Assembly (NCBI GenBank): GCA_009914755.4
Contig: CP068257.2
Coordinates: 736,001-800,000, forward strand
From: the human T2T-CHM13v2.0 reference genome, Homo sapiens
Direction: 5' to 3'
DNA length: 64,000 nucleotides
Each line of letters starts with the position of its first letter. The stretch's first letter is position 1. The translations under genes were made by a program, and so were the position numbers. Positions 1,019 through 37,356 of this stretch are shown piece after piece. The notes beneath the pieces are model-generated. The model did not search any database. It saw nothing but the letters and a program-made list of their open reading frames with translations, and was not told where the DNA came from.

Positions 1019-1905
1019 CTCTGCCTAAAGGGGCATTGTGACAGATCTCTACACTGATCACTCAGGTGATGTAACTATTGTCTAGGCTCTGCTTAAAGGG
1101 GCCTTGTCACATACCTCTGCACTGATCACCCAGGTGATGTAACTCTTGTCTAGACTCTGCTTTCACGGCATATTGTGACATATCCATGCGCTGATCACCT
1201 TAGTGATGTAACACTTCTGTAGGCTCGGCCTACAGGGGAATATTGACATATCTCTGCACTGTTAACCGAGGTGATTTAACTCTTGTCTAGGCTGTGCCCA
1301 CAGGGGGATTGAGACATGTCTCTGCACTGATCCCGAGGTGATCCAACTGTTGCCTGGTCTCTGCCTACTGGGGACATTGTGACATATCTCTGCACTGATC
1401 TCCCAGGTGCTGTAACTTTAGTCTAGGCTCTGGCTACACGGCATTGTGACATATCACTGCACTGATCACCCAGGTGATATAAATCTTGTCTAGGCTCTGC
1501 CTACAATGGCCTTGTGACATATCACTGCACTGATCACCCAGGTGATATAACTCTTCTCTAGGATCTGACCACAGGGTGCTTTGTGGCATTTCCCTGCAAT
1601 GATCACCCAGGTGATATACCACTTGCCAAGGCTCTGCCTACAGGGGCATTGCAATGTATCTCTGCACTGATCACCTCGTTCTTGTAACTCTTTTCTAGGA
1701 TCTGCCCACAGGGTGCCTTGTGACGTATCCCAGCAAGGATTACCCAGGTGATGTACCTCTCATCAAGGCTCTGCCTACAGGCACATTGCGATGTATCTCT
1801 GCACTGATCACCTAGGTCATGTAACTTTTGTCTAGGCTCTGCCTACGATGGCATTGTGACATATCTCTGCACTAATCATCCAAGTGATGTAACCCTTGTC
1901 TAGGA

Positions 1906-15584: not shown

Positions 15585-17489
15585 TCTGCCTAAATTAACT
15601 TTGTGACATAACCCTGTACTGATCATCCAGGTGATGGGGCTTTTGTCTAGGCTCTGCCTAAGGGGGCATTGTGACATATTTCTGCATTGATCACCCAGGT
15701 GGCGAACTCTTCTCTTGGATCTGCCTATGGGGGCATTGTGACAAATCTCTGCACTGATAACCCAGGTGATGTAACGGTTGTGTAACCTCTGCCTACAGGG
15801 GAATTGTGAGAGATCTCGCCACTGATCACCCAAGTGATGAAACCATTGTCTAGGCTTTGCGTACAGGGGGCTTTGTGACATACCTTTGCACTGATCACCC
15901 AGGTGATGTAACACATCTAAGTTCGGCCTAAAGGAGCTTTGTGACATATCTCTGCACTGATCACTTAGGTGATGGAACACTTTTATAAGCACTGCCTACA
16001 GGGAATTTTGACAAATCTCTGCACTGATCACCTAGGTGATGTAACGCTTGTCTACCCTCTGTCCAACGGGGCATTGTGAAATATCTCTGCACTGATCACC
16101 CAGGTGATTCAACTCTTGACTAGGATCTGCCTACAGAGGTTATTGTGAAATATCTCTGCACTGATAAACTAGGTGGTGTAATCCTTATCGAAGCTCTGCC
16201 TACAGGGGCGTTTTCACATATCCCTGAAGTGATGACAAAGGTGATGTAACTCTTGCCTAGGCTTTGCCTACAGGGGACATAGGACATATATCTGCACTGA
16301 TTACCCAGGTGATGCAACTGTAGCCTAGGCTTTGCCTACAGGGGACATTGTGACATATCGCTTCAATGATCACCCATGTGATGCAACTCTTGCCTAGGCT
16401 TTGCCTACAGGGGACATTGTGACATATCTCAGCACTGATGTCCCAGGTGCTGTAACATTAGTCTAGACTCTGGCTACACGGCATTGTGACATATCACTGC
16501 ACTGATCAACCAGGTGATATAACTCTTGTCTAGGCTCTGCCTACAGGGGGCTTGTGACATATCCCTGCAATGATCATCCAGGTGATCTAACTCTTGTTTA
16601 AGCTCTGCCTAAAGGGGCATTCTGACAGATCTCTGCACTGATCACTCAGGTGATGTAACTATTGTCTAGGCTCTGCTTAAAGGGGCCTTGTCACATACCT
16701 CTGCACTGATCACCAAGGTGATGTAACTCTTGTCTAGCCTCTGCTTTCACGGCATATTGTGACATATCCATGCGCTGATCACCTTAGTGATGTAACACTT
16801 GTGTAGGCTCGGCCTTCAGGGGAATATTGACATATCTCTGCACTGTTAACCGAGGTGATTTAACTCTTGTCTAGGCTGTGCCCACAGGGGGATTGAGACA
16901 TGTCTCTGCACTGATCCCGAGGTAATCCAACTGTTGCCTGGTCTCTGCCTACTGGGGACATTGTGACATATCTCTGCACTGATCTCCCAGGTGCTGTAAC
17001 TTTAGTCTAGGCTCTGGCTACACGGCATTGTGACATATCACTGCACTGATCACCCAGGTGATATAAATCTTGTCTAGGCTCTGCCTACAATGGCCTTGTG
17101 ACATATCACTGCACTGATCACCCAGGTGATATAACTCTTCTCGAGGATCTGACCACAGGGTGCTTTGTGGCATTTCCCTGCAATGATCACCCAGGTGATA
17201 TACCACTTGCCAAGGCTCTGCCTACAGGGGCATTGCAATGTATCTCTGCACTGATCACCTCGTTCTTGTAACTCTTTTCTAGGATCTGCCCACAGGGTGC
17301 CTTGTGACGTATCCCAGCAAGGATTACCCAGGTGATGTACCTCTCATCAAGGCTCTGCCTACAGGCACATTGCGATGTATCTCTACACTGATCACCTAGG
17401 TCATGTAACTTTTGTCTAGGCTCTGCCTACGATGGCATTGTGACATATCTCTGCACTAATCATCCAAGTGATGTAACCCTTGTCTAGGA
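15585..17489. repeat. HOR copy U9, 28-mer, deletion type A (1905 bp).
   Basis: Landmarks are at 15585 and 17490. It carries the same deletion as U1 and U4. Confidence 0.8.
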
Positions 17490-19462
17490 TCTGCCTAAAT
17501 TAACTTTGTGACATAACCCTGTACTGATCATCCAGGTGATGGGGCTTTTGTCTAGGCTCTACCTTAAGGGGGCATTGTGACATATTTCTGCATTGATCAC
17601 CCAGGTGGCGAACTCTTCTCTTGGATCTGCCTATGGGGGCATTGTGACAAATCTCTGCACTCATCACCCAGGTGATGTAACTGTTGTGTAACCTCTGCCT
17701 ACAGGGGAATTGGGAGAGATCTCGCCACTGATCACCCAAGTGATGTAACCATTGTCTAGGCTTTGCGTACAGGGGCTTTGTGACATACCTTTGCACTGAT
17801 CACCCAGGTGATGTAACACATCTAAATTCGACCTAAAGGAGCTTTGTGACATATCTCTGCACTGATCACTTAGGTGATGGAACACTTTTATAAGCACTGC
17901 CTACAGGGAATTTTGACAAATCTCTGCACTGATCACCTAGGTGATGTAACTCTTGTCTACCCTCTGTCCAACGGGGCATTGTGAAATATCTCTGCACTGA
18001 TCACCCAGGTGATTCAACTCTTGACTAGTATCTGCCTACAGAGGTTATTGTGAAATATCTCTGCACTGATAAACTAGGTGGTGTAATCCTTATCGAAGCT
18101 CTGCCTACAGGGGCGTTTTCACATATCCCTGAAGTGATGACAAAGGTGATGTAACCCTTGCCTAGGCTTTGCCTACAGGGGATATAAGACATATATCTGC
18201 ACTGATCACCCAGGTGATGCAACTCTAGCCTAGGCTTTGCCTACAGGGGACATTGTGACATATCGCTTCAATGATCACCCATGTGATGCAACAATTGCCT
18301 AGGCTTTGCCTACAGGGGACATTGTGACATAAATCTGCACTGATCTCCCAGGTGCTGTAACATTAGTCTAGACTCTGGCTACACGGCATTGTGACATGTC
18401 ACTGCACTGATCAACCAGGTGATATAACTCTTGTCTAGGCCCTGCCTACAGGGGGCTTGTGACATATCTCTGCACTGATCACCCAGGTGATATAACTCTT
18501 CTCTAGGATCTGCCTACAGGGTGCTTTGCGACATATCCCTGCAATGATCACCCAGGTGATCTAACTCTTGTTTAAGCTCTGCCTAAAGGGGCATTGTGAC
18601 AGACCTCTGCACTGATCACTCAGGTGATGTAACTATTGTCTAGGCTCTGCTTAAAGGGGCCTTGTCACATACCTCTGCACTGATCACCCAGGTGATGTAA
18701 CTCTTGTCTAGACTCTGTTTCACGGCATATTGTGACATATCTATGCGCTGATCACCTTAGTGATGTAACACTTGTGTAGGCTCGGCCTACAGGGGAATAT
18801 TGACATATCTCTGCACTGTTAACCGAGGTGATTTAACTCTTGTCTAGGCTGTGCCCACAGGGGGATTGAGACATGTCTCTGCACTGATCCCGAGGTGATC
18901 CAACTGTTGCCTGGTCTCTGCCTACTGGGGACATTGTGACATATCTCTGCACTGATCTCCCAGGTGCTGTAACTTTAGTCTAGGCTCTGGCTACACGGCA
19001 TTGTGACATATCACTGCACTGATCACCCAGGTGATATAAATCTTGTCTAGGCTCTACCTACAATGGCCTTGTGACATATCTCTGCACTGATCACCCAGGT
19101 GATATAACTCTTCTCTAGGATCTGACCACAGGGTGCTTTGTGGCATTTCCCTGCAATGATCACCCAGGTGATATACCACTTGCCAAGGCTCTGCCTACAG
19201 GGGCATTGCAATGTATCTCTGCACTGATCACCTCGGTCTTGTAACTCTTTTCTAGGATCTGCCCACAGGGTGCCTTGTGACGTATCCCAGCAAGGATTAC
19301 CCAGGTGATGTACCTCTCATCAAGGCTCTGCCTACAGGCACATTGCGATGTATCTCTGCTCTGATCACCTAAGTCATGTAACTTTTGTCTAGGCTCTGCC
19401 TACGATGGCATTGTGACAAATCTCTGCACTAATCATCCAAGTGATGTAACCCTTGTCTAGGA
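17490..19462. repeat. HOR copy U10, 29-mer (1973 bp), subtype K.
   Basis: Landmarks are at 17490 and 19463. It matches U2. Confidence 0.8.
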
Positions 19463-21367
19463 TCTGCCTAAAGTAACTTTGTGACATAACCCTGTACTGA
19501 TCATCCAGGTGATGCGGCTTTTGTCTAGGCTCTGCCTAAGGGGGCATTGTGACATATTTCTGCATTGATCACCCAGGTGGCGAACTCTTCTCTTGGATCT
19601 GCCTATGGGGGCATTGTGACAAATCTCTGCACTGATCACCCAGGTGATGTAACTGTTGTGTAACCTCTGCCTACAGGGGAATTGTGTGAGATCTCGCCAC
19701 TGATCACCCAAGTGATGTAACCATTGTCTAGGCTTTGCGTACAGGGGGCTTTGTGACATACCTTTGCACTGATCACCCAGGTGATGTAACACATCTAAGT
19801 TCGGCCTAAAGGAGCTTTGTGACATATCTCTGCACTGATCACTTAGGTGATGGAACACTTTTATAAGCACTGCCTACAGGGAATTTTGACAAATCTCTGC
19901 ACTGATCACCTAGGTGATGTAACGCTTGTCTACCCTCTGTCCAACGGGGCATTGTGAAATATCTCTGCACTGATCACCCAGGTGATTCAACTCTTGACTA
20001 GGATCTGCCTACAGAGGTTATTGTGAAATATCTCTGCACTGATAAACTAGGTGGTGTAATCCTTATCGAAGCTCTGCCTGCAGGGGCGTTTTCACATATC
20101 CCTGAATTGATGACAAAGGTGATGTAACCCTTGCCTAGGCTTTGCCTACAGGGGACATAGGACATATATCTGCACTGATCACCCAGGTGATGCAACTCTA
20201 GCCTAGGCTTTGCCTACAGGGGACATTGTGACATATCTCTGCACTGATCTCCCAGGTGCTGTAACATTAGTCTAGACTCTGGCTACACGGCATTGTGACA
20301 TATCACTGCACTGATCAACCAGGTGATATAACTCTTGTCTAGGCCCTGACTACAGGGGGCTTGTGACATATCTCTGCACTGATCACCCAGGTGATATAAC
20401 TCTTCTCTAGGGTCTGCCTACAGGGTGCTTTGCGACGTATCCCTGCAATGATCACCCAGGTGATCTAACTCTTGTTTAAGCTCTGCCTAAAGGGGCATTG
20501 TGACAGACCTCTGCACTGATCACTCAGGTGATGTAACTATTGTCTAGGCTCTGCTTAAAGGGGCCTTGTCACATACCTCTGCACTGATCACCCAGGTGAT
20601 GTAACTCTTGTCTAGACTCTGCTTTCACGGCATATTGTGACATATCTATGCGCTGATCACCTTAGTGATGTAACACTTCTGTAGGCTCGGCCTACAGGGG
20701 AATATTGACATATCTCTGCACTGTTAACCGAGGTGATTTAACTCTTGTCTAGGCTGTGCCCACAGGGGGTTTGAGACATGTCTCTGCACTGATCCCGAGG
20801 TGATCCAACTGTTGCCTGGTCTCTGCCTACTGGGGACATTGTGACATATCTCCGCACTGATCTCCCAGGTGCTGTAATTTTAGTCTAGGCTCTGGCTACA
20901 CGGCATTGTGACATATCACTGCACTGATCACCCAGGTGATATAAATCTTGTCTAGGCTCTGCCTACAATGACCTTGTGACATATCTCTGCACTGATCACC
21001 CAGGTGATATAACTCTTCTCTAGGATCTGACCACAGGGTGCTTTGTGGCATTTCCCTGCAATGATCACCGAGGTGATATACCACTTGTCAGGGCTCTGCC
21101 TACAGGGGCATTGCAACGTATCTCTGCACTGATCACCACGGTCTTGTAACTCTTTTCTAGGATCTGCCCACAGGGTGCCTTGTGACGTATCCCAGCAAGG
21201 ATTACCCAGGTGATGTACCTCTCATCAAGGCTCTGCCTACAGGCACATTGCGATGTATCTCTGCACTGATCACCTAGGTCATGTAACTTTTGTCTAGGCT
21301 CTGCCTACGATGGCATTGTGACATATCTCTGCACTAATCATCCAAGTGATGTAACCCTTGTCTAGGA
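19463..21367. repeat. HOR copy U11, 28-mer, deletion type B (1905 bp).
   Basis: Landmarks are at 19463 and 21368. Confidence 0.8.
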
Positions 21368-23476
21368 TCTGCCTAAATTAACTTTGTGACGTAACCCTGT
21401 ACTGATCATCCAGGTGATGGGGCTTTTGTCTAGGCTCTGCCTAAGGGGGCATTGTGACTTATTTCTGCATTGATCACCCAGGTGGCGAACTCTTCTCTTG
21501 GATCTGCCTATGGGGGCATTGTGACAAATCTCTGCACTGATCACCCAGGTGATGTAACTGTTGTGTAACCTCTGCCTACAGGGGAATTGTGAGAGATCTC
21601 GCCACTGATCACCCAAGTGACGTAACCATTGTCTAGGCTTTGCGTACAGGGGGCTTTGTGACATACCTTTGCACTGATCACCCAGGTGATGTAACACATC
21701 TAAGTTCGGCCTAAAGGAGCTTTGTGACATATCTCTGCACTGATCACCTAGGTGATGGAACACTTTTATAAGCACTGCCTACAGGGAATTTTGACAAATC
21801 TCTGCACTGATCACCTAGGTGATGTAACTCTTGTCTACCCTCTGTCCAACGGGGCATTGTGAAATATCTCTGCACTGATCACCCAGGTGATTCAACTCTT
21901 GACTAGGATCTGCCTACAGAGGTTATTGTGAAATATCTCTGCACTGATAAACTAGGTGGTGTAATCCTTATCGAAGCTCTGCCTACAGGGGCGTTTTCAC
22001 ATATCCCTGAAGTGATGACAAAGGTGATGTAACTCTTGCCTAGGCTTTGCCTACAGGGGACATAGGACATATATCTGCGCTGATCACCCAGGTGATGCAA
22101 CTCTAGCCTAGGCTTTGCCTACAGGGGACATTGTGACATATCGCTTCAATGATCACCCATGTGATGCAACTCTTGCCTTGGCTTTGCCTACAGGGGACAT
22201 TGTGACATATCTCTGCACTGATCTCCCATGTGCTGTAACATTAGTCTAGACTCTGGCTACACGGCATTGTGACATATCACTGCACTAATCAACCAGGTGA
22301 TATAACTCTTGTCTAGGCCCTGCCTACAGGGGGCTTGTGACATATCTCTGCACTGATCACCCAGGTGATATAACTCTTCTCTAGGGTCTGCCTACAGGGT
22401 GCTTTGCGACATATCCCTGCAATGATCACCCAGGTGATCTAACTCTTGTTTAAGCTCTGCCTAAAGGGGCATTGTGACAGATCTCTGCACTGATCACTCA
22501 GGTGATGTAACTATTGTCTAGGCTCTGCTTAAAGGGGCCTTGTCACATACCTCTGCACTGATCACCCAGGTGATGTAACTCTTGTCTAGCCTCTGCTTTC
22601 ACGGCATATTGTGACATATCTATGCGCTGATCACCTTAGTGATGTAACACTTGTGTAGGCTCGGCCTACAGGGGAATATTGACATATCTCTGCACTGTTA
22701 ACCGAGGTGATTTAACTCTTGTCTAGGCTGTGCCCACAGGGGGATTGAGACATGTCTCTGCCATGATCCCGAGGTGATCCAACTGTTGCCTGGTCTCTGC
22801 CTACTGGGGACATTGTGACATATCTCTGCACTGATCTCCCAGGTGCTGTAATTTTAGTCTAGGCTCTGGCTACACGGCATTGTGACATATCACTGCACTG
22901 ATCACCCAGGTTATATAAATCTTGTCTAGGCTCTGCCTACAATGGCCTTGTGACATATCTCTGCACTGATCTCCCAGGTGCTGTAACTTTAGTCTAGGCT
23001 CTGGCTACACGGCATTGTGACATACCACTGCACTGATCACCCAGGTGATATAAATCTTGTCTAGGCTCTGCCTACAATGGCCTTGTGACATATCTCTGCA
23101 CTGATCACCCAGGTGATATAACTCTTCTCTAGGATCTGACCACAGGGTGCTTTGTGGCATTTCCCTGCAATGATCACCCAGGTGATATACCACTTGCCAA
23201 GGCTCTGCCTACAGGGGCATTGCAATGTATCTCTGCACTGATCACCTCGGTCTTGTAACTCTTTTCTAGGATCTGCCCACAGGGTGCCTTGTGACGTATC
23301 CCAGCAAGGATTACCCAGGTGATGTACCTCTCATCAAGGCTCTGCCTACAGGCACATTGCGATGTATCTCTGCACTGATCACCTAGGTCATGTAACTTTT
23401 GTCTGGGCTCTGCCTACGATGGCATTGTGACATATCTCTGCACTAATCATCCAAGTGATGTAACCCTTGTCTAGGA
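21368..23476. repeat. HOR copy U12, 31-mer (2109 bp), subtype R with a 2-monomer insertion.
   Basis: Landmarks are at 21368 and 23477. A 136-bp two-monomer block is duplicated in tandem at ~22830-23105. Confidence 0.8.
22830..23105. repeat. Tandem duplication of a 136-bp two-monomer segment. It converts the 29-mer into the 31-mer in U12. The identical event is in U17 at ~32763-33038.
   Basis: The segment ctcccaggtgctgtaa.tttagtctaggctctggctacacggcattgtgacata.cactgcactgatcacccagg.tatataaatcttgtctaggctctgcctacaatggccttgtgacatatctctgcactgat is present twice in a row. Confidence 0.8.
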
Positions 23477-25450
23477 TCTGCCTAAATTAACTTTGTGACA
23501 TAACCCTGTACTGATCATCCAGGTGATGGGGCTTTTGTCTAGGCTCTGCCTAAGGGGGCATTGTGACATATTTCTGCATTGATCACGCAGGTGGCGAACT
23601 CTTCTCTTGGATCTGCCTATGGGGGCATTGTGATAAATCTCTGCACTCATCACCCAGGTGATGTAACTGTTGTGTAACCTCTGCCTACAGGGGAATTGTG
23701 AGAGATCTCGCCACTGATCACGCAAGTGATGTAACCATTGTCTAGGCTTTGCGTACAGGGGGCTTTGTGACATACCTTTGCACTGATCACCCAGGTGATG
23801 TAACACATCTAAGTTCGGCCTAAAGGAGCTTTGTGACATATCTCTGCACTGATCACTTAGGTGATGGAACACTTTTATAAGCACTGCCTACAGGGAATTT
23901 TGACAAATCTCTGCACTGATCACCTAGGTGATGTAACGCTTGTCTACCCTCTGTCCAACGGGGCATTGTGAAATATCTCTGCACTGATCACCCAGGTGAT
24001 TCAACTCTTGACTAGGATCTGCCTACAGAGGTTATTGTGAAATATCTCTGCACTGATAAACTAGGTGGTGTAATACTTATCGAAGCTCTGCCTACAGGTG
24101 CGTTTTCACATATCCCTGAAGTGATGACAAAGGTGATGTAACCCTTGCCTAGGCTTTGCCTACAGGGGACATAGGACATATATCTGCACTGATCACCCAG
24201 GTGATGCAACTCTATCCTAGGCTTTGCCTACAGGGGACATTGTGACATATCGCTTCAATGATCACCCATGTGATGCAACACTTGCCTAGGCTTTGCCTAC
24301 AGGGGACATTGTGACATATCTCTGCACTGATCTCCCAGGTGCTGCAACATTAATCTAGAGTCTGGCTACACGGCATTGTGACATATCACTGCACTGATCA
24401 ACCAGGTGATATAACTCTTGTCTAGGTCCTGCCTACAGAGGGCTTGTGACATATCTCTGCACTGATCACCCAGGTGATATAACTCTTCTCTAGGATCTGC
24501 CTACAGGGTGCTTTGCGACATATCCCTGCAATGATAACCCAGGTGATCTAACTCTTGTTTAAGCTCTGCCTAAAGGGGCATTGTGACAGACCTGTGCACT
24601 GATCACTAAGGTGATGTAACTATTGTCTAGGCTCTGCTTAAAGGGGCCTTGTCACATACCTCTGCACTGATAACCCAGGTGATGTAACTCTTGTCTAGCC
24701 TCTGCTTTCACGGCATATTGTAACATATCCATTCGCAGATCACCTTAGTGATGTAACAGTTGTGTAGGCTCGGCCTACAGGGGAATATTGACATATCTCT
24801 GCACTGTTAACCGAGGTGATTTAACTCTTGTCTAGGCTGTGCCCACAGGGGGATTGAGACATGTCTCTGCACTGATCCCGAGGTGATCCAACTGTTGCCT
24901 GGTCTCTGCCTACTGGGGACATTGTGACATATCTCTGCACTGATCTCCCAGGTGCTGTAACTTTAGTCTAGGCTCTGGCTACACGGCATTGTGACATATC
25001 ACTGCACTGATCACCCAGGTGATATAAATCTTGTCTAGGCTCTGCCTACAATGGCCTTGTGACATATCTCTGCACTGATCACCCAGGTGATATAACTCTT
25101 CTCTAGGATCTGACCACAGGGTGCTTTGTGGCATTTCCCTGCAATGATCACCCAGGTGATATACCACTTGCCAAGGCTCTGCCTACAGGGGCATTGCAAT
25201 GTATCTCTGCACTGATCACCTCGGTCTTGTAACTCTTTTCTAGGACCTGCCCACCGGGTGCCTTGTGACGTATCCCAGCAAGGATTACCCAGGTGATGTA
25301 CCTCTCATCAAGGCTCTGCCTACAGGCACATTGCGATGTATCTCTGCACTGATCACCTAGGTCATGTAACTTTTGTCTAGGCTCTGCCTACGATGGCATT
25401 GTGACATATCTCTGCACTAATCATCCAAGTGATGTAACCGTTGTCTAGGA
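23477..25450. repeat. HOR copy U13, 29-mer (1974 bp), subtype Y.
   Basis: Landmarks are at 23477 and 25451. Confidence 0.8.
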
Positions 25451-27423
25451 TCTGCCTAAATTAACTTTGTGACATAACCCTGTACTGATCATCCAGGTGA
25501 TGGGGCTTTTGTCTAGGCTCTGCCTAAGGGGGCATTGTGACATATTTCTGCATTGATCACCCAGGTGGCGAACTCTTCTCTTGGATCTGCCTATGGGGGC
25601 ATTGTGACAAATCTCTGCACTGATCACCCAGGTGATATAACTGTTGTGTAACCTCTGCCTACAGGGGAATTGTGAGAGATCTCGCCACTGATCACCCAAG
25701 TGATGTAACCATTGTCTAGGCTTTGCGTACAGGGGGCTTTGTGACATACCTTTGCACTGATCACCCAGGTGATGTAACACATCTAAGTTCGGCCTAAAGG
25801 AGCTTTGTGACATATCTCTGCACTGATCACTTAGGTGATGGAACACTTTTATAAGCACTGCCTACAGGGAATTTTGACAAATCTCTGCACTGATCACCTA
25901 GGTGATGTAATGCTTGTCTACCCTCTGTCCAACGGGGCATTGTGAAATATCTCTGCACTGATCACCCAGGTGATTCAACTCTTGACTAGGATCTGCCTAC
26001 AGAGGTTATTGTGAAATATCTCTGCACTGATAAACTAGGTGGTGTAATCCTTATCGAAGCTCTGCCTACAGGTGCGTTTTCACATATCCCTGAAGTGATG
26101 ACAAAGGTGATGTAACCCTTGCCTAGGCTTTGCCTACAGGGGACATAGGACATATATCTGCACTGATCACCCAGGTGATGCAACTGTAGCCTAGGCTTTG
26201 CCTACAGGGGACATTGTGACATATCGCTTCAATGATCACCCGTGTGATGCAACTCTTGCCTAGGCTTTGCCTACAGGGGACATTGTGACATATCTCTGCA
26301 CTGATCTCCCAGGTGCTGTAACATTAGTCCAGACTCTGGCTACACGGCATTGTGACATATCACTGCACTGATCAACCAGGTGATATAACTCTTGTCTAGG
26401 CCCTGCCTACAGGGGGCTTGTGACATATCTCTGCACTGATCACCCAGGTGATATAACTCTTCTCTAGGATCTGCCTACAGGGTGCTTTGCGACATATCCC
26501 TGCAATGATCACCCAGGTGATCTAACTCTTGTTTAAGCTCTGCCTAAAGGGGCATTGTGACAGACCTCTGCACTGATCACTCAGGTGATGTAACTATTGT
26601 CTAGGCTCTGCTTAAAGGGGCCTTGTCACATACCTCTGCACTGATCACCCAGGTGATGTAACTCTTGTCTAGACTCTGTTTCACGGCATATTGTGACATA
26701 TCTATGCGCTGATCACCTTAGTGATGTAACACTTGTGTAGGCTCGGCCTACAGGGGAATATTGACATATCTCTGCACTGTTAACCGAGGTGATTTAACTC
26801 TTGTCTAGGCTGTGCCCACAGGGTGATTGAGACATGTCTCTGCACTGATCCCGAGGTGATCCAACTGTTGCCTGGTCTCTGCCTACTGGGGACATTGTGA
26901 CATATCTCTGCACTGATCTCCCAGGTGCTGTAACTTTAGTCTAGGCTCTGGCTACACGGCATTGTGACATATCACTGCACTGATCACCCAGGTGATATAA
27001 ATCTTGTCTAGGCTCTGCCTACAATGGCCTTGTGACATATCTCTGCACTGATCACCCAGGTGATATAACTCTTCTCTAGGATCTGACCACAGGGTGCTTT
27101 GTGGCATTTCCCTGCAATGATCACCCAGGTGATATACCACTTGCCAAGGCTCTGCCTACAGGGGCATTGCAATGTATCTCTGCACTGATCACCTCGGTCT
27201 TGTAACTCTTTTCTAGGATCTGCCCACAGGGTGCCTTGTGACGTATCCCAGCAAGGATTACCCAGGTGATGTACCTCTCATCAAGGCTCTGCCTACAGGC
27301 ACATTGCGATGTATCTCTGCTCTGATCACCTAAGTCATGTAACTTTTGTCTAGGCTCTGCCTACGATGGCATTGTGACAAATCTCTGCACTAATCATCCA
27401 AGTGATGTAACCCTTGTCTAGGA
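25451..27423. repeat. HOR copy U14, 29-mer (1973 bp), subtype S.
   Basis: Landmarks are at 25451 and 27424. Confidence 0.8.
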
Positions 27424-29395
27424 TCTGCCTAAAGTAACTTTGTGACATAACCCTGTACTGATCATCCAGGTGATGGGGCTTTTGTCTAGGCTCTGCCTAA
27501 GGGGGCATTGTGACATATTTCTGCATTGATCACCCAGGTGGCGAACTCTTCTCTTGGATCTGCCTATGGGGGCATTGTGACAAATCTCTGCACTCATCAC
27601 CCAGGTGATGTAACTGTTGTGTAACCTCTGCCTACAGGGGAATTGGGAGAGATCTCGCCACTGATCACCCAAGTGATGTAACCATTGTCTAGGCTTTGCG
27701 TACAGGGGCTTTGTGACATACCTTTGCACTGATCACCCAGGTGATGTAACACATCTAAATTCGACCTAAAGGAGCTTTGTGACATATCTCTGCACTGATC
27801 ACTTAGGTGATGGAACACTTTTATAAGCACTGCCTACAGGGAATTTTGACAAATCTCTGCACTGATCACCTAGGTGATGTAACTCTTGTCTACCCTCTGT
27901 CCAACGGGGCATTGTGAAATATCTCTGCACTGATCACCCAGGTGATTCAACTCTTGACTAGTATCTGCCTACAGAGGTTATTGTGAAATATCTCTGCACT
28001 GATAAACTAGGTGGTGTAATCCTTATCGAAGCTCTGCCTACAGGGGCGTTTTCACATATCCCTGAAGTGATGACAAAGGTGATGTAACCCTTGCCTAGGC
28101 TTTGCCTACAGGGGATATAAGACATATATCTGCACTGATCACCCAGGTGATGCAACTCTAGCCTAGGCTTTGCCTACAGGGGACATTGTGACATATCGCT
28201 TCAATGATCACCCATGTGATGCAACAATTGCCTAGGCTTTGCCTACAGGGGACATTGTGACATAAATCTGCACTGATCTCCCAGGTGCTGTAACATTAGT
28301 CTAGACTCTGGCTACACGGCATTGTGACATGTCACTGCACTGATCAACCAGGTGATATAACTCTTGTCTAGGCCCTGCCTACAGGGGGCTTGTGACATAT
28401 CTCTGCACTGATCACCCAGGTGATATAACTCTTCTCTAGGATCTGCCTACAGGGTGCTTTGCGACATATCCCTGCAATGATCACCCAGGTGATCTAACTC
28501 TTGTTTAAGCTCTGCCTAAAGGGGCATTGTGACAGACCTCTGCACTGATCACTCAGGTGATGTAACTATTGTCTAGGCTCTGCTTAAAGGGGCCTTGTCA
28601 CATACCTCTGCACTGATCACCCAGGTGATGTAACTCTTGTCTAGACTCTGTTTCACGGCATATTGTGACATATCTATGCGCTGATCACCTTAGTGATGTA
28701 ACACTTGTGTAGGCTCGGCCTACAGGGGAATATTGACATATCTCTGCACTGTTAACCGAGGTGATTTAACTCTTGTCTAGGCTGTGCCCACAGGGGGATT
28801 GAGACATGTCTCTGCACTGATCCCGAGGTGATCCAACTGTTGCCTGGTCTCTGCCTACTGGGGACATTGTGACATATCTCTGCACTGATCTCCCAGGTGC
28901 TGTAACTTTAGTCTAGGCTCTGGCTACACGGCATTGTGACATATCACTGCACTGATCACCCAGGTGATATAAATCTTGTCTAGGCTCTACCTACAATGGC
29001 CTTGTGACATATCTCTGCACTGATCACCCAGGTGATATAACTCTTCTCTAGGATCTGACCACAGGGTGCTTTGTGGCATTTCCCTGCAATGATCACCCAG
29101 GTGATATACCACTTGCCAAGGCTCTGCCTACAGGGGCATTGCAATGTATCTCTGCACTGATCACCTCGGTCTTGTAACTCTTTTCTAGGATCTGCCCACA
29201 GGGTGCCTTGTGACGTATCCCAGCAAGGATTACCCAGGTGATGTACCTCTCATCAAGGCTCTGCCTACAGGCACATTGCGATGTATCTCTGCTCTGATCA
29301 CCTAAGTCATGTAACTTTTGTCTAGGCTCTGCCTACGATGGCATTGTGACAAATCTCTGCACTAATCATCCAAGTGATGTAACCCTTGTCTAGGA
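27424..29395. repeat. HOR copy U15, 29-mer (1972 bp), subtype K.
   Basis: Landmarks are at 27424 and 29396. It is near-identical to U10 at a 9933-bp offset. Confidence 0.8.
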
Positions 29396-31300
29396 TCTGC
29401 CTAAAGTAACTTTGTGACATAACCCTGTACTGATCATCCAGGTGATGCGGCTTTTGTCTAGGCTCTGCCTAAGGGGGCATTGTGACATATTTCTGCATTG
29501 ATCACCCAGGTGGCGAACTCTTCTCTTGGATCTGCCTATGGGGGCATTGTGACAAATCTCTGCACTGATCACCCAGGTGATGTAACTGTTGTGTAACCTC
29601 TGCCTACAGGGGAATTGTGTGAGATCTCGCCACTGATCACCCAAGTGATGTAACCATTGTCTAGGCTTTGCGTACAGGGGGCTTTGTGACATACCTTTGC
29701 ACTGATCACCCAGGTGATGTAACACATCTAAGTTCGGCCTAAAGGAGCTTTGTGACATATCTCTGCACTGATCACTTAGGTGATGGAACACTTTTATAAG
29801 CACTGCCTACAGGGAATTTTGACAAATCTCTGCACTGATCACCTAGGTGATGTAACGCTTGTCTACCCTCTGTCCAACGGGGCATTGTGAAATATCTCTG
29901 CACTGATCACCCAGGTGATTCAACTCTTGACTAGGATCTGCCTACAGAGGTTATTGTGAAATATCTCTGCACTGATAAACTAGGTGGTGTAATCCTTATC
30001 GAAGCTCTGCCTGCAGGGGCGTTTTCACATATCCCTGAATTGATGACAAAGGTGATGTAACCCTTGCCTAGGCTTTGCCTACAGGGGACATAGGACATAT
30101 ATCTGCACTGATCACCCAGGTGATGCAACTCTAGCCTAGGCTTTGCCTACAGGGGACATTGTGACATATCTCTGCACTGATCTCCCAGGTGCTGTAACAT
30201 TAGTCTAGACTCTGGCTACACGGCATTGTGACATATCACTGCACTGATCAACCAGGTGATATAACTCTTGTCTAGGCCCTGACTACAGGGGGCTTGTGAC
30301 ATATCTCTGCACTGATCACCCAGGTGATATAACTCTTCTCTAGGGTCTGCCTACAGGGTGCTTTGCGACGTATCCCTGCAATGATCACCCAGGTGATCTA
30401 ACTCTTGTTTAAGCTCTGCCTAAAGGGGCATTGTGACAGACCTCTGCACTGATCACTCAGGTGATGTAACTATTGTCTAGGCTCTGCTTAAAGGGGCCTT
30501 GTCACATACCTCTGCACTGATCACCCAGGTGATGTAACTCTTGTCTAGACTCTGCTTTCACGGCATATTGTGACATATCTATGCGCTGATCACCTTAGTG
30601 ATGTAACACTTGTGTAGGCTCGGCCTACAGGGGAATATTGACATATCTCTGCACTGTTAACCGAGGTGATTTAACTCTTGTCTAGGCTGTGCCCACAGGG
30701 GGTTTGAGACATGTCTCTGCACTGATCCCGAGGTGATCCAACTGTTGCCTGGTCTCTGCCTACTGGGGACATTGTGACATATCTCCGCACTGATCTCCCA
30801 GGTGCTGTAATTTTAGTCTAGGCTCTGGCTACACGGCATTGTGACATATCACTGCACTGATCACCCAGGTGATATAAATCTTGTCTAGGCTCTGCCTACA
30901 ATGACCTTGTGACATATCTCTGCACTGATCACCCAGGTGATATAACTCTTCTCTAGGATCTGACCACAGGGTGCTTTGTGGCATTTCCCTGCAATGATCA
31001 CCGAGGTGATATACCACTTGTCAGGGCTCTGCCTACAGGGGCATTGCAACGTATCTCTGCACTGATCACCACGGTCTTGTAACTCTTTTCTAGGATCTGC
31101 CCACAGGGTGCCTTGTGACGTATCCCAGCAAGGATTACCCAGGTGATGTACCTCTCATCAAGGCTCTGCCTACAGGCACATTGCGATGTATCTCTGCACT
31201 GATCACCTAGGTCATGTAACTTTTGTCTAGGCTCTGCCTACGATGGCATTGTGACATATCTCTGCACTAATCATCCAAGTGATGTAACCCTTGTCTAGGA
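29396..31300. repeat. HOR copy U16, 28-mer, deletion type B (1905 bp).
   Basis: Landmarks are at 29396 and 31301. The type B deletion shows at ~30125-30185. Confidence 0.8.
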
Positions 31301-33409
31301 TCTGCCTAAATTAACTTTGTGACGTAACCCTGTACTGATCATCCAGGTGATGGGGCTTTTGTCTAGGCTCTGCCTAAGGGGGCATTGTGACTTATTTCTG
31401 CATTGATCACCCAGGTGGCGAACTCTTCTCTTGGATCTGCCTATGGGGGCATTGTGACAAATCTCTGCACTGATCACCCAGGTGATGTAACTGTTGTGTA
31501 ACCTCTGCCTACAGGGGAATTGTGAGAGATCTCGCCACTGATCACCCAAGTGACGTAACCATTGTCTAGGCTTTGCGTACAGGGGGCTTTGTGACATACC
31601 TTTGCACTGATCACCCAGGTGATGTAACACATCTAAGTTCGGCCTAAAGGAGCTTTGTGACATATCTCTGCACTGATCACCTAGGTGATGGAACACTTTT
31701 ATAAGCACTGCCTACAGGGAATTTTGACAAATCTCTGCACTGATCACCTAGGTGATGTAACTCTTGTCTACCCTCTGTCCAACGGGGCATTGTGAAATAT
31801 CTCTGCACTGATCACCCAGGTGATTCAACTCTTGACTAGGATCTGCCTACAGAGGTTATTGTGAAATATCTCTGCACTGATAAACTAGGTGGTGTAATCC
31901 TTATCGAAGCTCTGCCTACAGGGGCGTTTTCACATATCCCTGAAGTGATGACAAAGGTGATGTAACTCTTGCCTAGGCTTTGCCTACAGGGGACATAGGA
32001 CATATATCTGCGCTGATCACCCAGGTGATGCAACTCTAGCCTAGGCTTTGCCTACAGGGGACATTGTGACATATCGCTTCAATGATCACCCATGTGATGC
32101 AACTCTTGCCTTGGCTTTGCCTACAGGGGACATTGTGACATATCTCTGCACTGATCTCCCATGTGCTGTAACATTAGTCTAGACTCTGGCTACACGGCAT
32201 TGTGACATATCACTGCACTAATCAACCAGGTGATATAACTCTTGTCTAGGCCCTGCCTACAGGGGGCTTGTGACATATCTCTGCACTGATCACCCAGGTG
32301 ATATAACTCTTCTCTAGGGTCTGCCTACAGGGTGCTTTGCGACATATCCCTGCAATGATCACCCAGGTGATCTAACTCTTGTTTAAGCTCTGCCTAAAGG
32401 GGCATTGTGACAGATCTCTGCACTGATCACTCAGGTGATGTAACTATTGTCTAGGCTCTGCTTAAAGGGGCCTTGTCACATACCTCTGCACTGATCACCC
32501 AGGTGATGTAACTCTTGTCTAGCCTCTGCTTTCACGGCATATTGTGACATATCTATGCGCTGATCACCTTAGTGATGTAACACTTGTGTAGGCTCGGCCT
32601 ACAGGGGAATATTGACATATCTCTGCACTGTTAACCGAGGTGATTTAACTCTTGTCTAGGCTGTGCCCACAGGGGGATTGAGACATGTCTCTGCCATGAT
32701 CCCGAGGTGATCCAACTGTTGCCTGGTCTCTGCCTACTGGGGACATTGTGACATATCTCTGCACTGATCTCCCAGGTGCTGTAATTTTAGTCTAGGCTCT
32801 GGCTACACGGCATTGTGACATATCACTGCACTGATCACCCAGGTTATATAAATCTTGTCTAGGCTCTGCCTACAATGGCCTTGTGACATATCTCTGCACT
32901 GATCTCCCAGGTGCTGTAACTTTAGTCTAGGCTCTGGCTACACGGCATTGTGACATACCACTGCACTGATCACCCAGGTGATATAAATCTTGTCTAGGCT
33001 CTGCCTACAATGGCCTTGTGACATATCTCTGCACTGATCACCCAGGTGATATAACTCTTCTCTAGGATCTGACCACAGGGTGCTTTGTGGCATTTCCCTG
33101 CAATGATCACCCAGGTGATATACCACTTGCCAAGGCTCTGCCTACAGGGGCATTGCAATGTATCTCTGCACTGATCACCTCGGTCTTGTAACTCTTTTCT
33201 AGGATCTGCCCACAGGGTGCCTTGTGACGTATCCCAGCAAGGATTACCCAGGTGATGTACCTCTCATCAAGGCTCTGCCTACAGGCACATTGCGATGTAT
33301 CTCTGCACTGATCACCTAGGTCATGTAACTTTTGTCTGGGCTCTGCCTACGATGGCATTGTGACATATCTCTGCACTAATCATCCAAGTGATGTAACCCT
33401 TGTCTAGGA
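31301..33409. repeat. HOR copy U17, 31-mer (2109 bp), subtype R with a 2-monomer insertion.
   Basis: Landmarks are at 31301 and 33410. It carries the same insertion as U12, at ~32763-33038. Confidence 0.8.
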
Positions 33410-35383
33410 TCTGCCTAAATTAACTTTGTGACATAACCCTGTACTGATCATCCAGGTGATGGGGCTTTTGTCTAGGCTCTGCCTAAGGGGGCATTGTGAC
33501 ATATTTCTGCATTGATCACGCAGGTGGCGAACTCTTCTCTTGGATCTGCCTATGGGGGCATTGTGATAAATCTCTGCACTCATCACCCAGGTGATGTAAC
33601 TGTTGTGTAACCTCTGCCTACAGGGGAATTGTGAGAGATCTCGCCACTGATCACGCAAGTGATGTAACCATTGTCTAGGCTTTGCGTACAGGGGGCTTTG
33701 TGACATACCTTTGCACTGATCACCCAGGTGATGTAACACATCTAAGTTCGGCCTAAAGGAGCTTTGTGACATATCTCTGCACTGATCACTTAGGTGATGG
33801 AACACTTTTATAAGCACTGCCTACAGGGAATTTTGACAAATCTCTGCACTGATCACCTAGGTGATGTAACGCTTGTCTACCCTCTGTCCAACGGGGCATT
33901 GTGAAATATCTCTGCACTGATCACCCAGGTGATTCAACTCTTGACTAGGATCTGCCTACAGAGGTTATTGTGAAATATCTCTGCACTGATAAACTAGGTG
34001 GTGTAATACTTATCGAAGCTCTGCCTACAGGTGCGTTTTCACATATCCCTGAAGTGATGACAAAGGTGATGTAACCCTTGCCTAGGCTTTGCCTACAGGG
34101 GACATAGGACATATATCTGCACTGATCACCCAGGTGATGCAACTCTATCCTAGGCTTTGCCTACAGGGGACATTGTGACATATCGCTTCAATGATCACCC
34201 ATGTGATGCAACACTTGCCTAGGCTTTGCCTACAGGGGACATTGTGACATATCTCTGCACTGATCTCCCAGGTGCTGCAACATTAATCTAGAGTCTGGCT
34301 ACACGGCATTGTGACATATCACTGCACTGATCAACCAGGTGATATAACTCTTGTCTAGGTCCTGCCTACAGAGGGCTTGTGACATATCTCTGCACTGATC
34401 ACCCAGGTGATATAACTCTTCTCTAGGATCTGCCTACAGGGTGCTTTGCGACATATCCCTGCAATGATAACCCAGGTGATCTAACTCTTGTTTAAGCTCT
34501 GCCTAAAGGGGCATTGTGACAGACCTGTGCACTGATCACTAAGGTGATGTAACTATTGTCTAGGCTCTGCTTAAAGGGGCCTTGTCACATACCTCTGCAC
34601 TGATAACCCAGGTGATGTAACTCTTGTCTAGCCTCTGCTTTCACGGCATATTGTAACATATCCATTCGCAGATCACCTTAGTGATGTAACAGTTGTGTAG
34701 GCTCGGCCTACAGGGGAATATTGACATATCTCTGCACTGTTAACCGAGGTGATTTAACTCTTGTCTAGGCTGTGCCCACAGGGGGATTGAGACATGTCTC
34801 TGCACTGATCCCGAGGTGATCCAACTGTTGCCTGGTCTCTGCCTACTGGGGACATTGTGACATATCTCTGCACTGATCTCCCAGGTGCTGTAACTTTAGT
34901 CTAGGCTCTGGCTACACGGCATTGTGACATATCACTGCACTGATCACCCAGGTGATATAAATCTTGTCTAGGCTCTGCCTACAATGGCCTTGTGACATAT
35001 CTCTGCACTGATCACCCAGGTGATATAACTCTTCTCTAGGATCTGACCACAGGGTGCTTTGTGGCATTTCCCTGCAATGATCACCCAGGTGATATACCAC
35101 TTGCCAAGGCTCTGCCTACAGGGGCATTGCAATGTATCTCTGCACTGATCACCTCGGTCTTGTAACTCTTTTCTAGGACCTGCCCACCGGGTGCCTTGTG
35201 ACGTATCCCAGCAAGGATTACCCAGGTGATGTACCTCTCATCAAGGCTCTGCCTACAGGCACATTGCGATGTATCTCTGCACTGATCACCTAGGTCATGT
35301 AACTTTTGTCTAGGCTCTGCCTACGATGGCATTGTGACATATCTCTGCACTAATCATCCAAGTGATGTAACCGTTGTCTAGGA
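33410..35383. repeat. HOR copy U18, 29-mer (1974 bp), subtype Y.
   Basis: Landmarks are at 33410 and 35384. Confidence 0.8.
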
Positions 35384-37356
35384 TCTGCCTAAATTAACTT
35401 TGTGACATAACCCTGTACTGATCATCCAGGTGATGGGGCTTTTGTCTAGGCTCTGCCTAAGGGGGCATTGTGACATATTTCTGCATTGATCACCCAGGTG
35501 GCGAACTCTTCTCTTGGATCTGCCTATGGGGGCATTGTGACAAATCTCTGCACTGATCACCCAGGTGATATAACTGTTGTGTAACCTCTGCCTACAGGGG
35601 AATTGTGAGAGATCTCGCCACTGATCACCCAAGTGATGTAACCATTGTCTAGGCTTTGCGTACAGGGGGCTTTGTGACATACCTTTGCACTGATCACCCA
35701 GGTGATGTAACACATCTAAGTTCGGCCTAAAGGAGCTTTGTGACATATCTCTGCACTGATCACTTAGGTGATGGAACACTTTTATAAGCACTGCCTACAG
35801 GGAATTTTGACAAATCTCTGCACTGATCACCTAGGTGATGTAATGCTTGTCTACCCTCTGTCCAACGGGGCATTGTGAAATATCTCTGCACTGATCACCC
35901 AGGTGATTCAACTCTTGACTAGGATCTGCCTACAGAGGTTATTGTGAAATATCTCTGCACTGATAAACTAGGTGGTGTAATCCTTATCGAAGCTCTGCCT
36001 ACAGGTGCGTTTTCACATATCCCTGAAGTGATGACAAAGGTGATGTAACCCTTGCCTAGGCTTTGCCTACAGGGGACATAGGACATATATCTGCACTGAT
36101 CACCCAGGTGATGCAACTGTAGCCTAGGCTTTGCCTACAGGGGACATTGTGACATATCGCTTCAATGATCACCCGTGTGATGCAACTCTTGCCTAGGCTT
36201 TGCCTACAGGGGACATTGTGACATATCTCTGCACTGATCTCCCAGGTGCTGTAACATTAGTCCAGACTCTGGCTACACGGCATTGTGACATATCACTGCA
36301 CTGATCAACCAGGTGATATAACTCTTGTCTAGGCCCTGCCTACAGGGGGCTTGTGACATATCTCTGCACTGATCACCCAGGTGATATAACTCTTCTCTAG
36401 GATCTGCCTACAGGGTGCTTTGCGACATATCCCTGCAATGATCACCCAGGTGATCTAACTCTTGTTTAAGCTCTGCCTAAAGGGGCATTGTGACAGACCT
36501 CTGCACTGATCACTCAGGTGATGTAACTATTGTCTAGGCTCTGCTTAAAGGGGCCTTGTCACATACCTCTGCACTGATCACCCAGGTGATGTAACTCTTG
36601 TCTAGACTCTGTTTCACGGCATATTGTGACATATCTATGCGCTGATCACCTTAGTGATGTAACACTTGTGTAGGCTCGGCCTACAGGGGAATATTGACAT
36701 ATCTCTGCACTGTTAACCGAGGTGATTTAACTCTTGTCTAGGCTGTGCCCACAGGGTGATTGAGACATGTCTCTGCACTGATCCCGAGGTGATCCAACTG
36801 TTGCCTGGTCTCTGCCTACTGGGGACATTGTGACATATCTCTGCACTGATCTCCCAGGTGCTGTAACTTTAGTCTAGGCTCTGGCTACACGGCATTGTGA
36901 CATATCACTGCACTGATCACCCAGGTGATATAAATCTTGTCTAGGCTCTGCCTACAATGGCCTTGTGACATATCTCTGCACTGATCACCCAGGTGATATA
37001 ACTCTTCTCTAGGATCTGACCACAGGGTGCTTTGTGGCATTTCCCTGCAATGATCACCCAGGTGATATACCACTTGCCAAGGCTCTGCCTACAGGGGCAT
37101 TGCAATGTATCTCTGCACTGATCACCTCGGTCTTGTAACTCTTTTCTAGGATCTGCCCACAGGGTGCCTTGTGACGTATCCCAGCAAGGATTACCCAGGT
37201 GATGTACCTCTCATCAAGGCTCTGCCTACAGGCACATTGCGATGTATCTCTGCTCTGATCACCTAAGTCATGTAACTTTTGTCTAGGCTCTGCCTACGAT
37301 GGCATTGTGACAAATCTCTGCACTAATCATCCAAGTGATGTAACCCTTGTCTAGGA
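35384..37356. repeat. HOR copy U19, 29-mer (1973 bp), subtype S.
   Basis: Landmarks are at 35384 and 37357. Confidence 0.8.

What the first reader, a model, noticed from the sequence alone, without database searches (positions are those of the whole stretch)
17600..37330. Very recent 9933-bp tandem duplication (5 HOR units) that postdates the 31-mer insertion
The segments at ~17.6-27.4 kb and ~27.5-37.3 kb are virtually identical. All artefact-ORF translations match at an offset of exactly 9933 bp. Both segments contain the rare 2109-bp 31-mer HOR, so the 2-monomer insertion arose first and the 5-HOR block was then duplicated. A further 2-HOR (3947-bp) duplication follows at 33.4-41.3 kb. In an assembly, blocks this similar are also prime candidates for collapse or false duplication.
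Basis: seen in the sequence. Interest (0 to 1): 0.5.

Follow-up and report, generated by a model that had tools for sequence, protein, structure and literature searches.

The report
Recent 5-unit duplication in beta satellite
A 9.9-kb block of five higher-order repeat units in a 68-bp (beta-type) satellite array has been copied head-to-tail so recently that the two copies differ at one base. This is a clean but ordinary example of how satellite arrays grow by unequal exchange.

Summary
Window 17565-27533 matches 27498-37466 at an offset of exactly 9933 bp, with no indel and one mismatch (20679 C vs 30612 G): 99.99% over 9969 bp. The whole 64-kb window is one uninterrupted, single-orientation 68-bp satellite, beta/Sau3A-like. 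It is organised in ~1974-bp 29-monomer higher-order repeats (HORs), with 28-, 31- and 33-monomer variants.

The duplicated block is five HORs (29+28+31+29+29 = 146 monomers). Ordinary HOR pairs here differ by a median of 34 positions (~1.7%).

The junction unit (27452-29423) is a hybrid. Its first 46 bases match the unit that follows copy B, and the rest matches the first unit of copy A. The switch lies in a 36-bp identical zone, in HOR register, which is the signature of unequal homologous exchange.

The 31-mer occurs only in the two copies and is identical in both, so it predates the duplication. The neighbouring 3947-bp duplication (33421-37367 / 37368-41314, 2 mismatches) is also real, and three informative sites show it is older than the 9933-bp event.

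An assembly copy-number error cannot be excluded without reads. The phenomenon is well known, so interest is low.

The parts
17565..27497 (+). Copy A of the 9933-bp, 5-HOR block. HOR types: b (29-mer), d (28-mer), e* (31-mer), f (29-mer), g (29-mer).
   Evidence: The offset-9933 ungapped match has 1 mismatch.
27498..37430 (+). Copy B of the 9933-bp block.
   Evidence: Unit-to-unit distances are U10/U15 = 1, U11/U16 = 1, U12/U17 = 0, U13/U18 = 0, U14/U19 = 0.
27452..29423 (+). Hybrid junction HOR unit U15. The first 46 bases match the head of U20 (and the array consensus) and lack the two markers that U10 carries at alignment columns 44 and 47 (the column-47 extra T is also in b-type unit U02). 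From base 47 onward it is identical to U10.
   Evidence: Alignment of unit heads. A 99-bp substring, 27497-27595, is unique in the window.
27498..27533 (+). The 36-bp exchange zone (HOR alignment columns 48-83), identical in the two parental units. Its partner is 37431-37466.
   Evidence: The match at offset 9933 runs 36 bp longer than the period. The next mismatch is 27534/37467, the f-type marker G at column 84.
20679..20679 (+). The only difference between the copies: C in copy A (derived) vs G at 30612 in copy B (the state in 29 of the other 31 units; the exceptions are U01, C, and U28, T).
21396..23504 (+). 31-monomer HOR variant (2109 bp) in copy A. The extra 135-bp dimer is at 22813-22947.
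31329..33437 (+). 31-monomer HOR variant in copy B, identical to U12. The extra dimer is at 32746-32880.
33421..37367 (+). Left copy of the older 3947-bp (2-HOR, types f and g) duplication.
   Evidence: The offset-3947 match 33421-37408 has 2 mismatches, at 34148 and 36263.
37368..41314 (+). Right copy of the 3947-bp duplication. Its 41-bp exchange zone is 37368-37408 (HOR columns -17 to +24). It keeps the ancestral bases at 38095 and 40210.
1..64000 (+). Host array: an uninterrupted, single-orientation 68-bp satellite of about 939 monomers and 32 complete HOR units, with no inversion and no foreign insertion.
   Evidence: TRF, monomer scan, anchors, no inverted repeats, no Rfam family.

Best explanation
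The window is a beta-satellite-type array: 68-bp monomers in a ~1974-bp, 29-monomer higher-order repeat (HOR). Within it, a five-HOR block of 9933 bp was duplicated in tandem very recently by an in-register, homology-mediated unequal exchange. Unequal sister-chromatid or inter-homologue crossing-over is the likely route, and a replication restart through the same homology would give the same product.

The exchange joined the head of the HOR unit lying just after the block to the equivalent position of the block's first unit. The switch occurred inside a 36-bp stretch where the two units are identical. That created one hybrid unit (U15) and two otherwise identical copies.

Order of events:
1. 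A two-monomer (135-bp) gain made the 31-mer variant.
2. A 3947-bp, two-HOR duplication arose by the same kind of exchange, with a 41-bp zone.
3. Two substitutions occurred in its left copy.
4. The 9933-bp duplication followed.
5. One substitution occurred in copy A.

Together the two recent events added 13.9 kb, which is 22% of this window.

What is shown: the identity, the edges, the hybrid junction and the relative order. What is inferred: the molecular pathway, the absolute age, and that the assembly is correct.
For: - Identity: 1 mismatch and 0 indels over 9969 bp at offset 9933. Background HOR pairs have a median of 34 mismatches per ~1974 bp, and adjacent units always differ by 21-47.
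- Block structure: the period is an exact sum of five HOR lengths, and the copies are head-to-tail with no spacer.
- Hybrid junction: U15 lacks the two markers that U10 carries at alignment columns 44 and 47 (the extra T at column 47 is also present in b-type unit U02). It also lacks the f-type marker at column 84, and from column 48 onward it is identical to U10. The match at offset 9933 overshoots the period by exactly the 36-bp identical zone.
- 31-mer first: U12 and U17 are identical and are the only 31-mers in the window.
- Order relative to the 3947-bp event: at column 712, U13 and U18 carry T while U20 and all 29 other units carry G. At column 853, U14 and U19 carry C while U21 and all others carry T. 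U15 also lacks the d-type C at column 25 that it would carry if a d unit had followed the block.
- Against a trivial false duplication: the copies are not strictly identical, and the junction is a novel 99-bp sequence, unique in the window, that has to exist in the underlying data.
- The HOR family exists in independent data. A contaminant contig in a Campylobacter concisus assembly is 98.5% identical in register. Metagenome contigs reach 95-97.7%. A 1906-bp 28-monomer beta-satellite HOR is published for CHM13 chr22 and chr15 short arms (PMC10760446).
Against: - No sequencing reads are available, so the copy number (2, rather than 1 or more than 2) rests on the assembly alone.
- The single A/B difference could be a consensus error.
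- The junction 99-mer was not found in the metagenome collection. That test has very little power.
- Two copies cannot distinguish crossing-over from replication-based or circle-mediated routes.
- The source species and chromosome are inferred, not shown.
Confidence: 0.8

Rival explanations
1. Assembly artefact. The genome has one copy of the block, or three or more, and the assembler mis-resolved a near-identical 10-kb repeat (false duplication or partial collapse).
For: The blocks are 99.99% identical and 9.9 kb long, which is the hardest case for assembly. Satellite arrays on repeat-rich arms are known trouble spots; the human assembly paper gave these satellite arrays targeted extra validation (PMC9186530).
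Against: - The junction unit U15 is a specific hybrid with a 99-bp sequence found nowhere else in the window.
- The two parental units differ by about 40 positions per 1974 bp, so a spurious long overlap between them is unlikely (inference).
- The copies differ at one base.
- The mutation pattern across U13/U18/U20 and U14/U19/U21 is phylogenetically coherent.
- A wrong copy number (more than 2) remains possible.
Confidence: 0.1
2. There was no copy-number gain. Two pre-existing, diverged 5-HOR modules were homogenised by a long gene-conversion tract.
For: The array already contains older repeated d-e-f(-g) modules at 99.4-99.75% per-unit identity (U05-07, U11-14, U16-19, U22-25). A similarly structured acceptor could therefore have existed.
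Against: - A tract of at least 9.9 kb would be required. It would have to carry over the 28-mer deletion and the 31-mer insertion and end exactly in HOR register. Typical mammalian conversion tracts are far shorter (general knowledge).
- The b-type unit occurs elsewhere only as U02, so no b-d-e-f-g acceptor is evident.
- The hybrid head of U15 is explained directly by a crossover.
Confidence: 0.04
3. A replication-based or extrachromosomal route: break-induced replication with template switching, or excision and rolling-circle reintegration of a 9933-bp circle. This would give the same two-copy product.
For: The product (a tandem copy with a seamless in-register junction in 36 bp of identity) is equally compatible with this route.
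Against: Nothing in the sequence requires it. There are no templated insertions or microhomology-only junctions, and only two copies, whereas rolling circles tend to give more. The sequence alone cannot distinguish it.
Confidence: 0.06

Closest known systems
Human beta satellite (Sau3A family) higher-order repeat arrays of acrocentric short arms, e.g. the 1906-bp 28-monomer HOR reported on T2T-CHM13 chr22:1.53-1.61 Mb and chr15:0.58-0.64 Mb (PMC10760446)
   Same: - The monomer is 68 bp, with about 75% inter-monomer identity (77% reported) and about one GATC per monomer.
- 1904-1906-bp 28-monomer units are present here (8 of 32 units), and HOR copies are at least 98% alike.
- One metagenome contig joins this HOR to a (CATTC)n-type satellite, as in the published HSat3-BSat layout.
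   Different: - The dominant unit here is a 29-mer (1971-1974 bp). The 28-mers are two independent one-monomer deletions.
- No reference sequence was available, so identity with the published HOR was compared only by length and organisation.
- Chromosome and species are not established.
Recent multi-HOR duplications, HOR-haplotypes and layered expansion in alpha-satellite arrays (Altemose et al., bioRxiv 10.1101/2021.07.12.452052)
   Same: - Local blocks of several HORs are nearly identical and are embedded in older, more diverged copies.
- A young homogeneous core (U01-U26) abuts an older flank (U27-U32, 3-6% diverged).
- Structural HOR variants are carried along by the expansions. That paper notes the same hyper-local evolution in non-centromeric satellites.
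   Different: This is a different satellite family, with no centromere function implied. The scale is small: two events adding 13.9 kb.
Unequal crossing-over model of tandem-repeat evolution (Smith 1976; cited from general knowledge, not from a tool)
   Same: An in-register exchange between misaligned repeat units gives a tandem duplication whose junction is a hybrid unit. All of these features are seen here.
   Different: The model is generic. The reciprocal deletion product and the pathway (sister chromatid or homologue) cannot be observed.
De novo satellite structural variants on acrocentric short arms in pedigrees (bioRxiv 10.64898/2025.12.16.694519)
   Same: Gains and losses of whole HOR multiples (135 bp to 6.8 kb) are observed within a few generations. 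This shows the process is ongoing at this size scale.
   Different: Most of the events detailed in the passages read were in alpha satellite, SST1 and HSat1A (not all eight were seen). None is reported as a 10-kb beta-satellite gain.

Membership tests
Beta satellite (Sau3A family) | Tandem monomer of about 68 bp | tested here: met
   TRF gives period 68 with 75% matches. Of the 933 intervals between 934 monomer peaks, 928 are 66-69 bp, across the whole window.
Beta satellite (Sau3A family) | Sau3A (GATC) site recurring about once per monomer | tested here: met
   999 GATC sites in about 939 monomers.
Beta satellite (Sau3A family) | Relatively GC-rich satellite (about 52% reported genome-wide) | tested here: inconclusive
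   GC is 47-48% throughout. That is above alpha satellite (39%) but below the 52% family average quoted.
Beta satellite (Sau3A family) | Sequence match to the reference beta-satellite consensus | not testable with these tools
   No reference consensus is held, and a full-text search for monomer substrings found no paper. The resemblance to the consensus is from memory only. Indirect support: 98.5% in-register match to a contaminant contig in an assembly of a human-associated bacterium, and a published 28-monomer, 1906-bp HOR.
Tandem duplication by in-register unequal homologous exchange | Two head-to-tail copies with no spacer, and a period equal to a whole number of repeat units | tested here: met
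   Copies are 17565-27497 and 27498-37430. 9933 = 5 HORs = 146 monomers.
Tandem duplication by in-register unequal homologous exchange | Junction lies within a stretch of identity between the two parental units, in repeat register | tested here: met
   The 36-bp identical zone at HOR columns 48-83. The older 3947-bp event has a 41-bp zone.
Tandem duplication by in-register unequal homologous exchange | Hybrid repeat unit at the junction, with parental markers switching once | tested here: met
   U15 lacks the U10 markers at columns 44 and 47 to the left of the zone and is identical to U10 to the right.
Tandem duplication by in-register unequal homologous exchange | Support from independent reads, or a reciprocal deletion allele in other haplotypes | not testable with these tools
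   No reads or other haplotypes are available. The junction 99-mer is absent from the metagenome collection, which is uninformative.
Assembly false duplication | Copies strictly identical, and a junction not represented in the reads | tested here: inconclusive
   The copies differ at one base and the junction is a specific hybrid. Read support cannot be checked.

The most novel reading that the evidence does not exclude
Both recent exchanges used almost the same place in the 1974-bp HOR: alignment columns -17 to +24 and 48 to 83, i.e. within about 100 bp. This might mark a preferred breakage or exchange site in this beta-satellite HOR that is driving an ongoing local expansion. The chance of two random breakpoints lying this close is about 0.06-0.1 (my own estimate). 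Older exchange points inferred from mosaic units lie elsewhere (columns ~690-1350). No PRDM9-type 13-mer motif (CCNCCNTNNCCNC, from general knowledge) occurs anywhere in the window.
Probability: 0.06. Interest if true: 0.4.

Novelty: new member of a known kind. Interest (0 to 1): 0.15.

Why it matters
As biology it is a textbook-clean, datable example of how satellite arrays grow. It has nested multi-HOR duplications, identifiable hybrid junction units and a resolvable order of events, in a satellite family (beta) whose fine structure has been described far less than alpha satellite.

Practically, it flags about 24 kb (17.5-41.4 kb) where mapping, copy-number calling and assembly are least reliable. 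It also supplies copy- and junction-specific markers to validate that stretch:
- the 99-mer at 27497-27595;
- the 31-mer junction at 22947-22972;
- the variant at 20679/30612.

It does not reveal a new mechanism or element.

Tried and rejected
- Rfam scan of the whole window: no family. The recurring 137-aa ORFs are one per HOR and are artefacts of the repeat.
- Exact search for the 99-bp junction sequence in metagenome contigs: no hit. The test has low power and is not evidence against the duplication.
- Full-text search of papers for monomer substrings, to obtain a reference consensus: nothing. Search for 'D9Z5': nothing. Waye & Willard 1989 (PMC297815) is not held.
- A greedy segmentation of unit diagonals, meant to date older block edges, merged flanks and was uninformative. 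It was replaced by per-pair mismatch lists.
- Recombination hot-spot idea: only two events, older breakpoints lie elsewhere, and there is no PRDM9 13-mer motif. It is kept only as the low-probability novel case.
- The reverse order of events (9933-bp duplication first, then 3947-bp) is rejected. It would need two back-mutations (columns 712 and 853) plus a change at column 25.
- Relative divergence alone (1/9969 vs 2/3988) could not order the events; my own binomial estimate gives P about 0.2.
- Metagenome contig L007 looked like an array edge but is a chimera with bacterial genes.
Full report
**What the window is**

The whole 64-kb window is one tandem array with flat composition (GC 0.47-0.48). 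TRF gives a 68-bp unit at 75% matches. A monomer scan finds about 934 forward-oriented monomers, nearly all spaced 66-69 bp apart. No reverse-strand monomers and no foreign stretch were found, there are no inverted repeats in 16-43 kb, and there is no Rfam family.

GATC occurs about once per monomer: 999 sites in about 939 monomers. Self-comparison peaks at 1974 bp. A 24-mer anchor that occurs once per period cuts the window into 32 complete higher-order repeat (HOR) units, U01-U32.

- Most units are 29-mers (1971-1974 bp).
- Eight are 28-mers (1904-1905 bp) produced by two different one-monomer deletions. One deletion, at alignment columns 945-1013, is in U01, U04 and U09. The other, at columns 725-793, is in U05, U11, U16, U22 and U26.
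- Two are 31-mers (2109 bp; U12 and U17).

These features fit the beta satellite / Sau3A family: a 68-bp repeat enriched on acrocentric short arms. They also fit the published 1906-bp, 28-monomer beta-satellite HOR on T2T-CHM13 chr22 and chr15 short arms (PMC10760446). My recognition of the monomer consensus is from memory, because no reference sequence could be retrieved.

Independent data contain the same HOR:
- a 1200-bp contaminant contig in a Campylobacter concisus assembly is 98.5% identical in register;
- metagenome contigs reach 95-97.7%.

**Check of the observation**

At offset 9933 the ungapped match runs from 17565 to 27533 (partner 27498-37466). Over these 9969 bp there is one mismatch (20679 C vs 30612 G) and no indel. 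The period equals five HOR units, 1973/1972 + 1905 + 2109 + 1974 + 1973, or 146 monomers. Unit-by-unit distances are U10/U15 = 1, U11/U16 = 1, U12/U17 = 0, U13/U18 = 0 and U14/U19 = 0.

For comparison, among the 325 unit pairs of U01-U26:
- the median distance is 34 mismatches;
- adjacent units always differ by 21-47;
- only nine pairs have <=1 mismatch, all belonging to the two events discussed here;
- no pair has 2-4 mismatches, and the next class has 5-10.

The mechanical ORFs do recur at +9933.

**Anatomy of the junction**

I labelled unit types by their markers (a to g). The order along the window is:

a b c a' d e f c a | b d e* f g | b d e* f g | f g | d e f g' d'

This is followed by six diverged units.

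- U10, the first unit of copy A, carries two head markers: A at column 44 and an extra T at column 47. The extra T is shared with the other b-type unit, U02.
- U15, the first unit of copy B, lacks both. It also lacks the f-type G at column 84, and from column 48 onward it is identical to U10.
- The first 46 bases of U15 equal the head of U20, the unit that follows copy B. The match at offset 9933 overshoots the period by exactly the 36 bp (columns 48-83) where the two parental units are identical.

U15 is thus a hybrid unit whose parental markers switch once, in register. That is the expected product of an unequal homologous exchange between the unit after the block and the first unit of the block. 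A 99-bp substring across it (27497-27595) is unique in the window.

**Order of events**

*The 31-mer.* The extra 135 bp (22813-22947 and 32746-32880) is a second copy of the adjacent two monomers. It is present only in U12 and U17, which are identical, so the gain predates the block duplication. It is not a fresh clean duplication. The two dimer copies differ at 3 of 135 positions. The first copy carries the e-type states and the second the states of other unit types, plus one private change.

*The 3947-bp duplication.* The segment 33421-37408 matches 37368-41355 with two mismatches, 34148 and 36263. Its junction lies in a 41-bp identical zone at columns -17 to +24.

*Relative order.* At column 712, U13 and U18 have T while U20 and all 29 other units have G. 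At column 853, U14 and U19 have C while U21 and all other units have T. Both substitutions therefore arose in the left copy after the 3947-bp duplication and were then copied by the 9933-bp duplication. The reverse order would need two back-mutations. It also predicts a d-type C at column 25 of U15, which is absent.

*The remaining A/B difference.* This is a G-to-C change in copy A; 29 of the other 31 units carry G there, the exceptions being U01 (C) and U28 (T).

The two recent events added 13.9 kb to what was a five-unit stretch.

**Wider structure**

- Adjacent HORs are never each other's closest relatives.
- Three- and four-unit modules d-e-f(-g) recur (U05-07, U11-14, U16-19, U22-25) at 5-13 mismatches per unit. 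The array therefore has an older multi-HOR tier of about 7.8 kb beneath the recent duplications.
- U27-U32 differ from U01-U26 by 3-6% and from each other by 1.5-3.8%. U27 itself switches from the young to the old type between columns 686 and 845, about 51.75-51.9 kb.
- This resembles the young-core, older-flank pattern and the hyper-local expansions described for human satellites (bioRxiv 10.1101/2021.07.12.452052).

**Mechanism and rivals**

The best-supported reading is a genuine, recent, in-register unequal exchange. The hybrid junction and the order of events are shown. The pathway (sister chromatid or homologue, crossover or replication restart) is inferred and cannot be resolved from two copies.

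*Assembly copy-number error* is the main rival. Several points argue against a simple false duplication:
- the junction is a specific novel sequence;
- the parental units differ by about 40 positions, so a spurious long overlap is unlikely (inference);
- the copies differ at one base;
- the shared and derived variants are phylogenetically coherent.

Only reads can settle the exact copy number.

*Long-tract gene conversion* would need a tract of at least 9.9 kb that carries a deletion and an insertion and ends in register. No b-d-e-f-g acceptor is evident.

**Dating (inference)**

This assumes a human acrocentric short-arm origin. With the pedigree-based rate of 1.33e-7 per bp per generation (bioRxiv 10.64898/2025.12.16.694519), one difference in 9969 bp corresponds to about 380 generations (95% interval 10-2100). 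The 3947-bp event corresponds to about 1900 generations. With the autosomal rate of 1.37e-8 both ages are ten-fold larger. That pedigree study also observed de novo gains and losses of whole satellite repeat units, from 135 bp to 6.8 kb, within a few generations. Events of this kind are therefore expected.

**Verdict**

This is a clean instance of a well-known process in a known satellite family. It is of practical value for assembly validation and of low scientific surprise.

Noticed in passing
window 51064-62897 (U27-U32); switch at about 51747-51906: There is a sharp change of array domain. Units right of about 51.9 kb differ by 3-6% from U01-U26 and by 1.5-3.8% from each other. U27 is a hybrid: it is of the young type up to about alignment column 685-845 and of the old type after that. 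This looks like an older, less homogenised flank next to a recently expanded core.
   Followed up: partly
window 7786-51063: Adjacent HOR units are never the most similar pair (21-47 mismatches). Modules of three or four units (types d-e-f-g, about 7.8 kb) recur at 5-13 mismatches per unit (U05-07, U11-14, U16-19, U22-25). This is a super-HOR tier older than the finding.
   Followed up: partly
window 63233-63502: The last, truncated unit carries a 270-bp (4-monomer) insertion relative to U32. That would make it a 33-monomer variant; anchor spacing is 2242 bp.
   Followed up: partly
window units U01, U04, U09 vs U05, U11, U16, U22, U26: The 28-monomer variants arose twice independently, by deletion of different monomers (alignment columns 945-1013 vs 725-793).
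   Followed up: yes
window 22813-23082 (and 32746-33015): The two dimer copies inside the 31-mer differ at 3 of 135 positions. The first copy has e-type states, and the second has the states common to other unit types plus one private change. This suggests an out-of-register exchange between different unit types, or later conversion, rather than a simple fresh duplication.
   Followed up: partly
window U10/U15 and U04 vs U14/U19/U21: Mosaic units. The right ~60% of the b-type units (after about column 882) and of U04 (after about column 925) is nearly identical to the g type. This records older in-register exchanges in mid-HOR.
   Followed up: partly
L008:1-4209 (metagenome contig ERZ772962 NODE-7753): 1.85 kb of this HOR (97.7% to the U27-U32 type) is joined to a (CATTC)n-type satellite. 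This fits the published HSat3-BSat neighbourhood on distal acrocentric short arms, but it could be a short-read assembly chimera.
   Followed up: partly
L007:1-8041 (metagenome contig OLDW01000434.1): 6.7 kb of bacterial coding sequence (ORFs that look like serine hydroxymethyltransferase and zinc alcohol dehydrogenase, judged by eye) is joined to 1.4 kb of this satellite. It is a chimeric metagenome contig containing host DNA.
   Followed up: partly
window, within each HOR (e.g. 20161 vs 20774): Inside the HOR there is an internal sub-period of about 613 bp (9 monomers) at about 84-85% identity. It is also visible as a peak at offset 613 in the self-comparison. This suggests the 29-mer was itself built from an older shorter repeat.
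   Followed up: no
window 1-64000: CpG is strongly depleted: 721 observed vs about 3584 expected from base composition.
   Followed up: no
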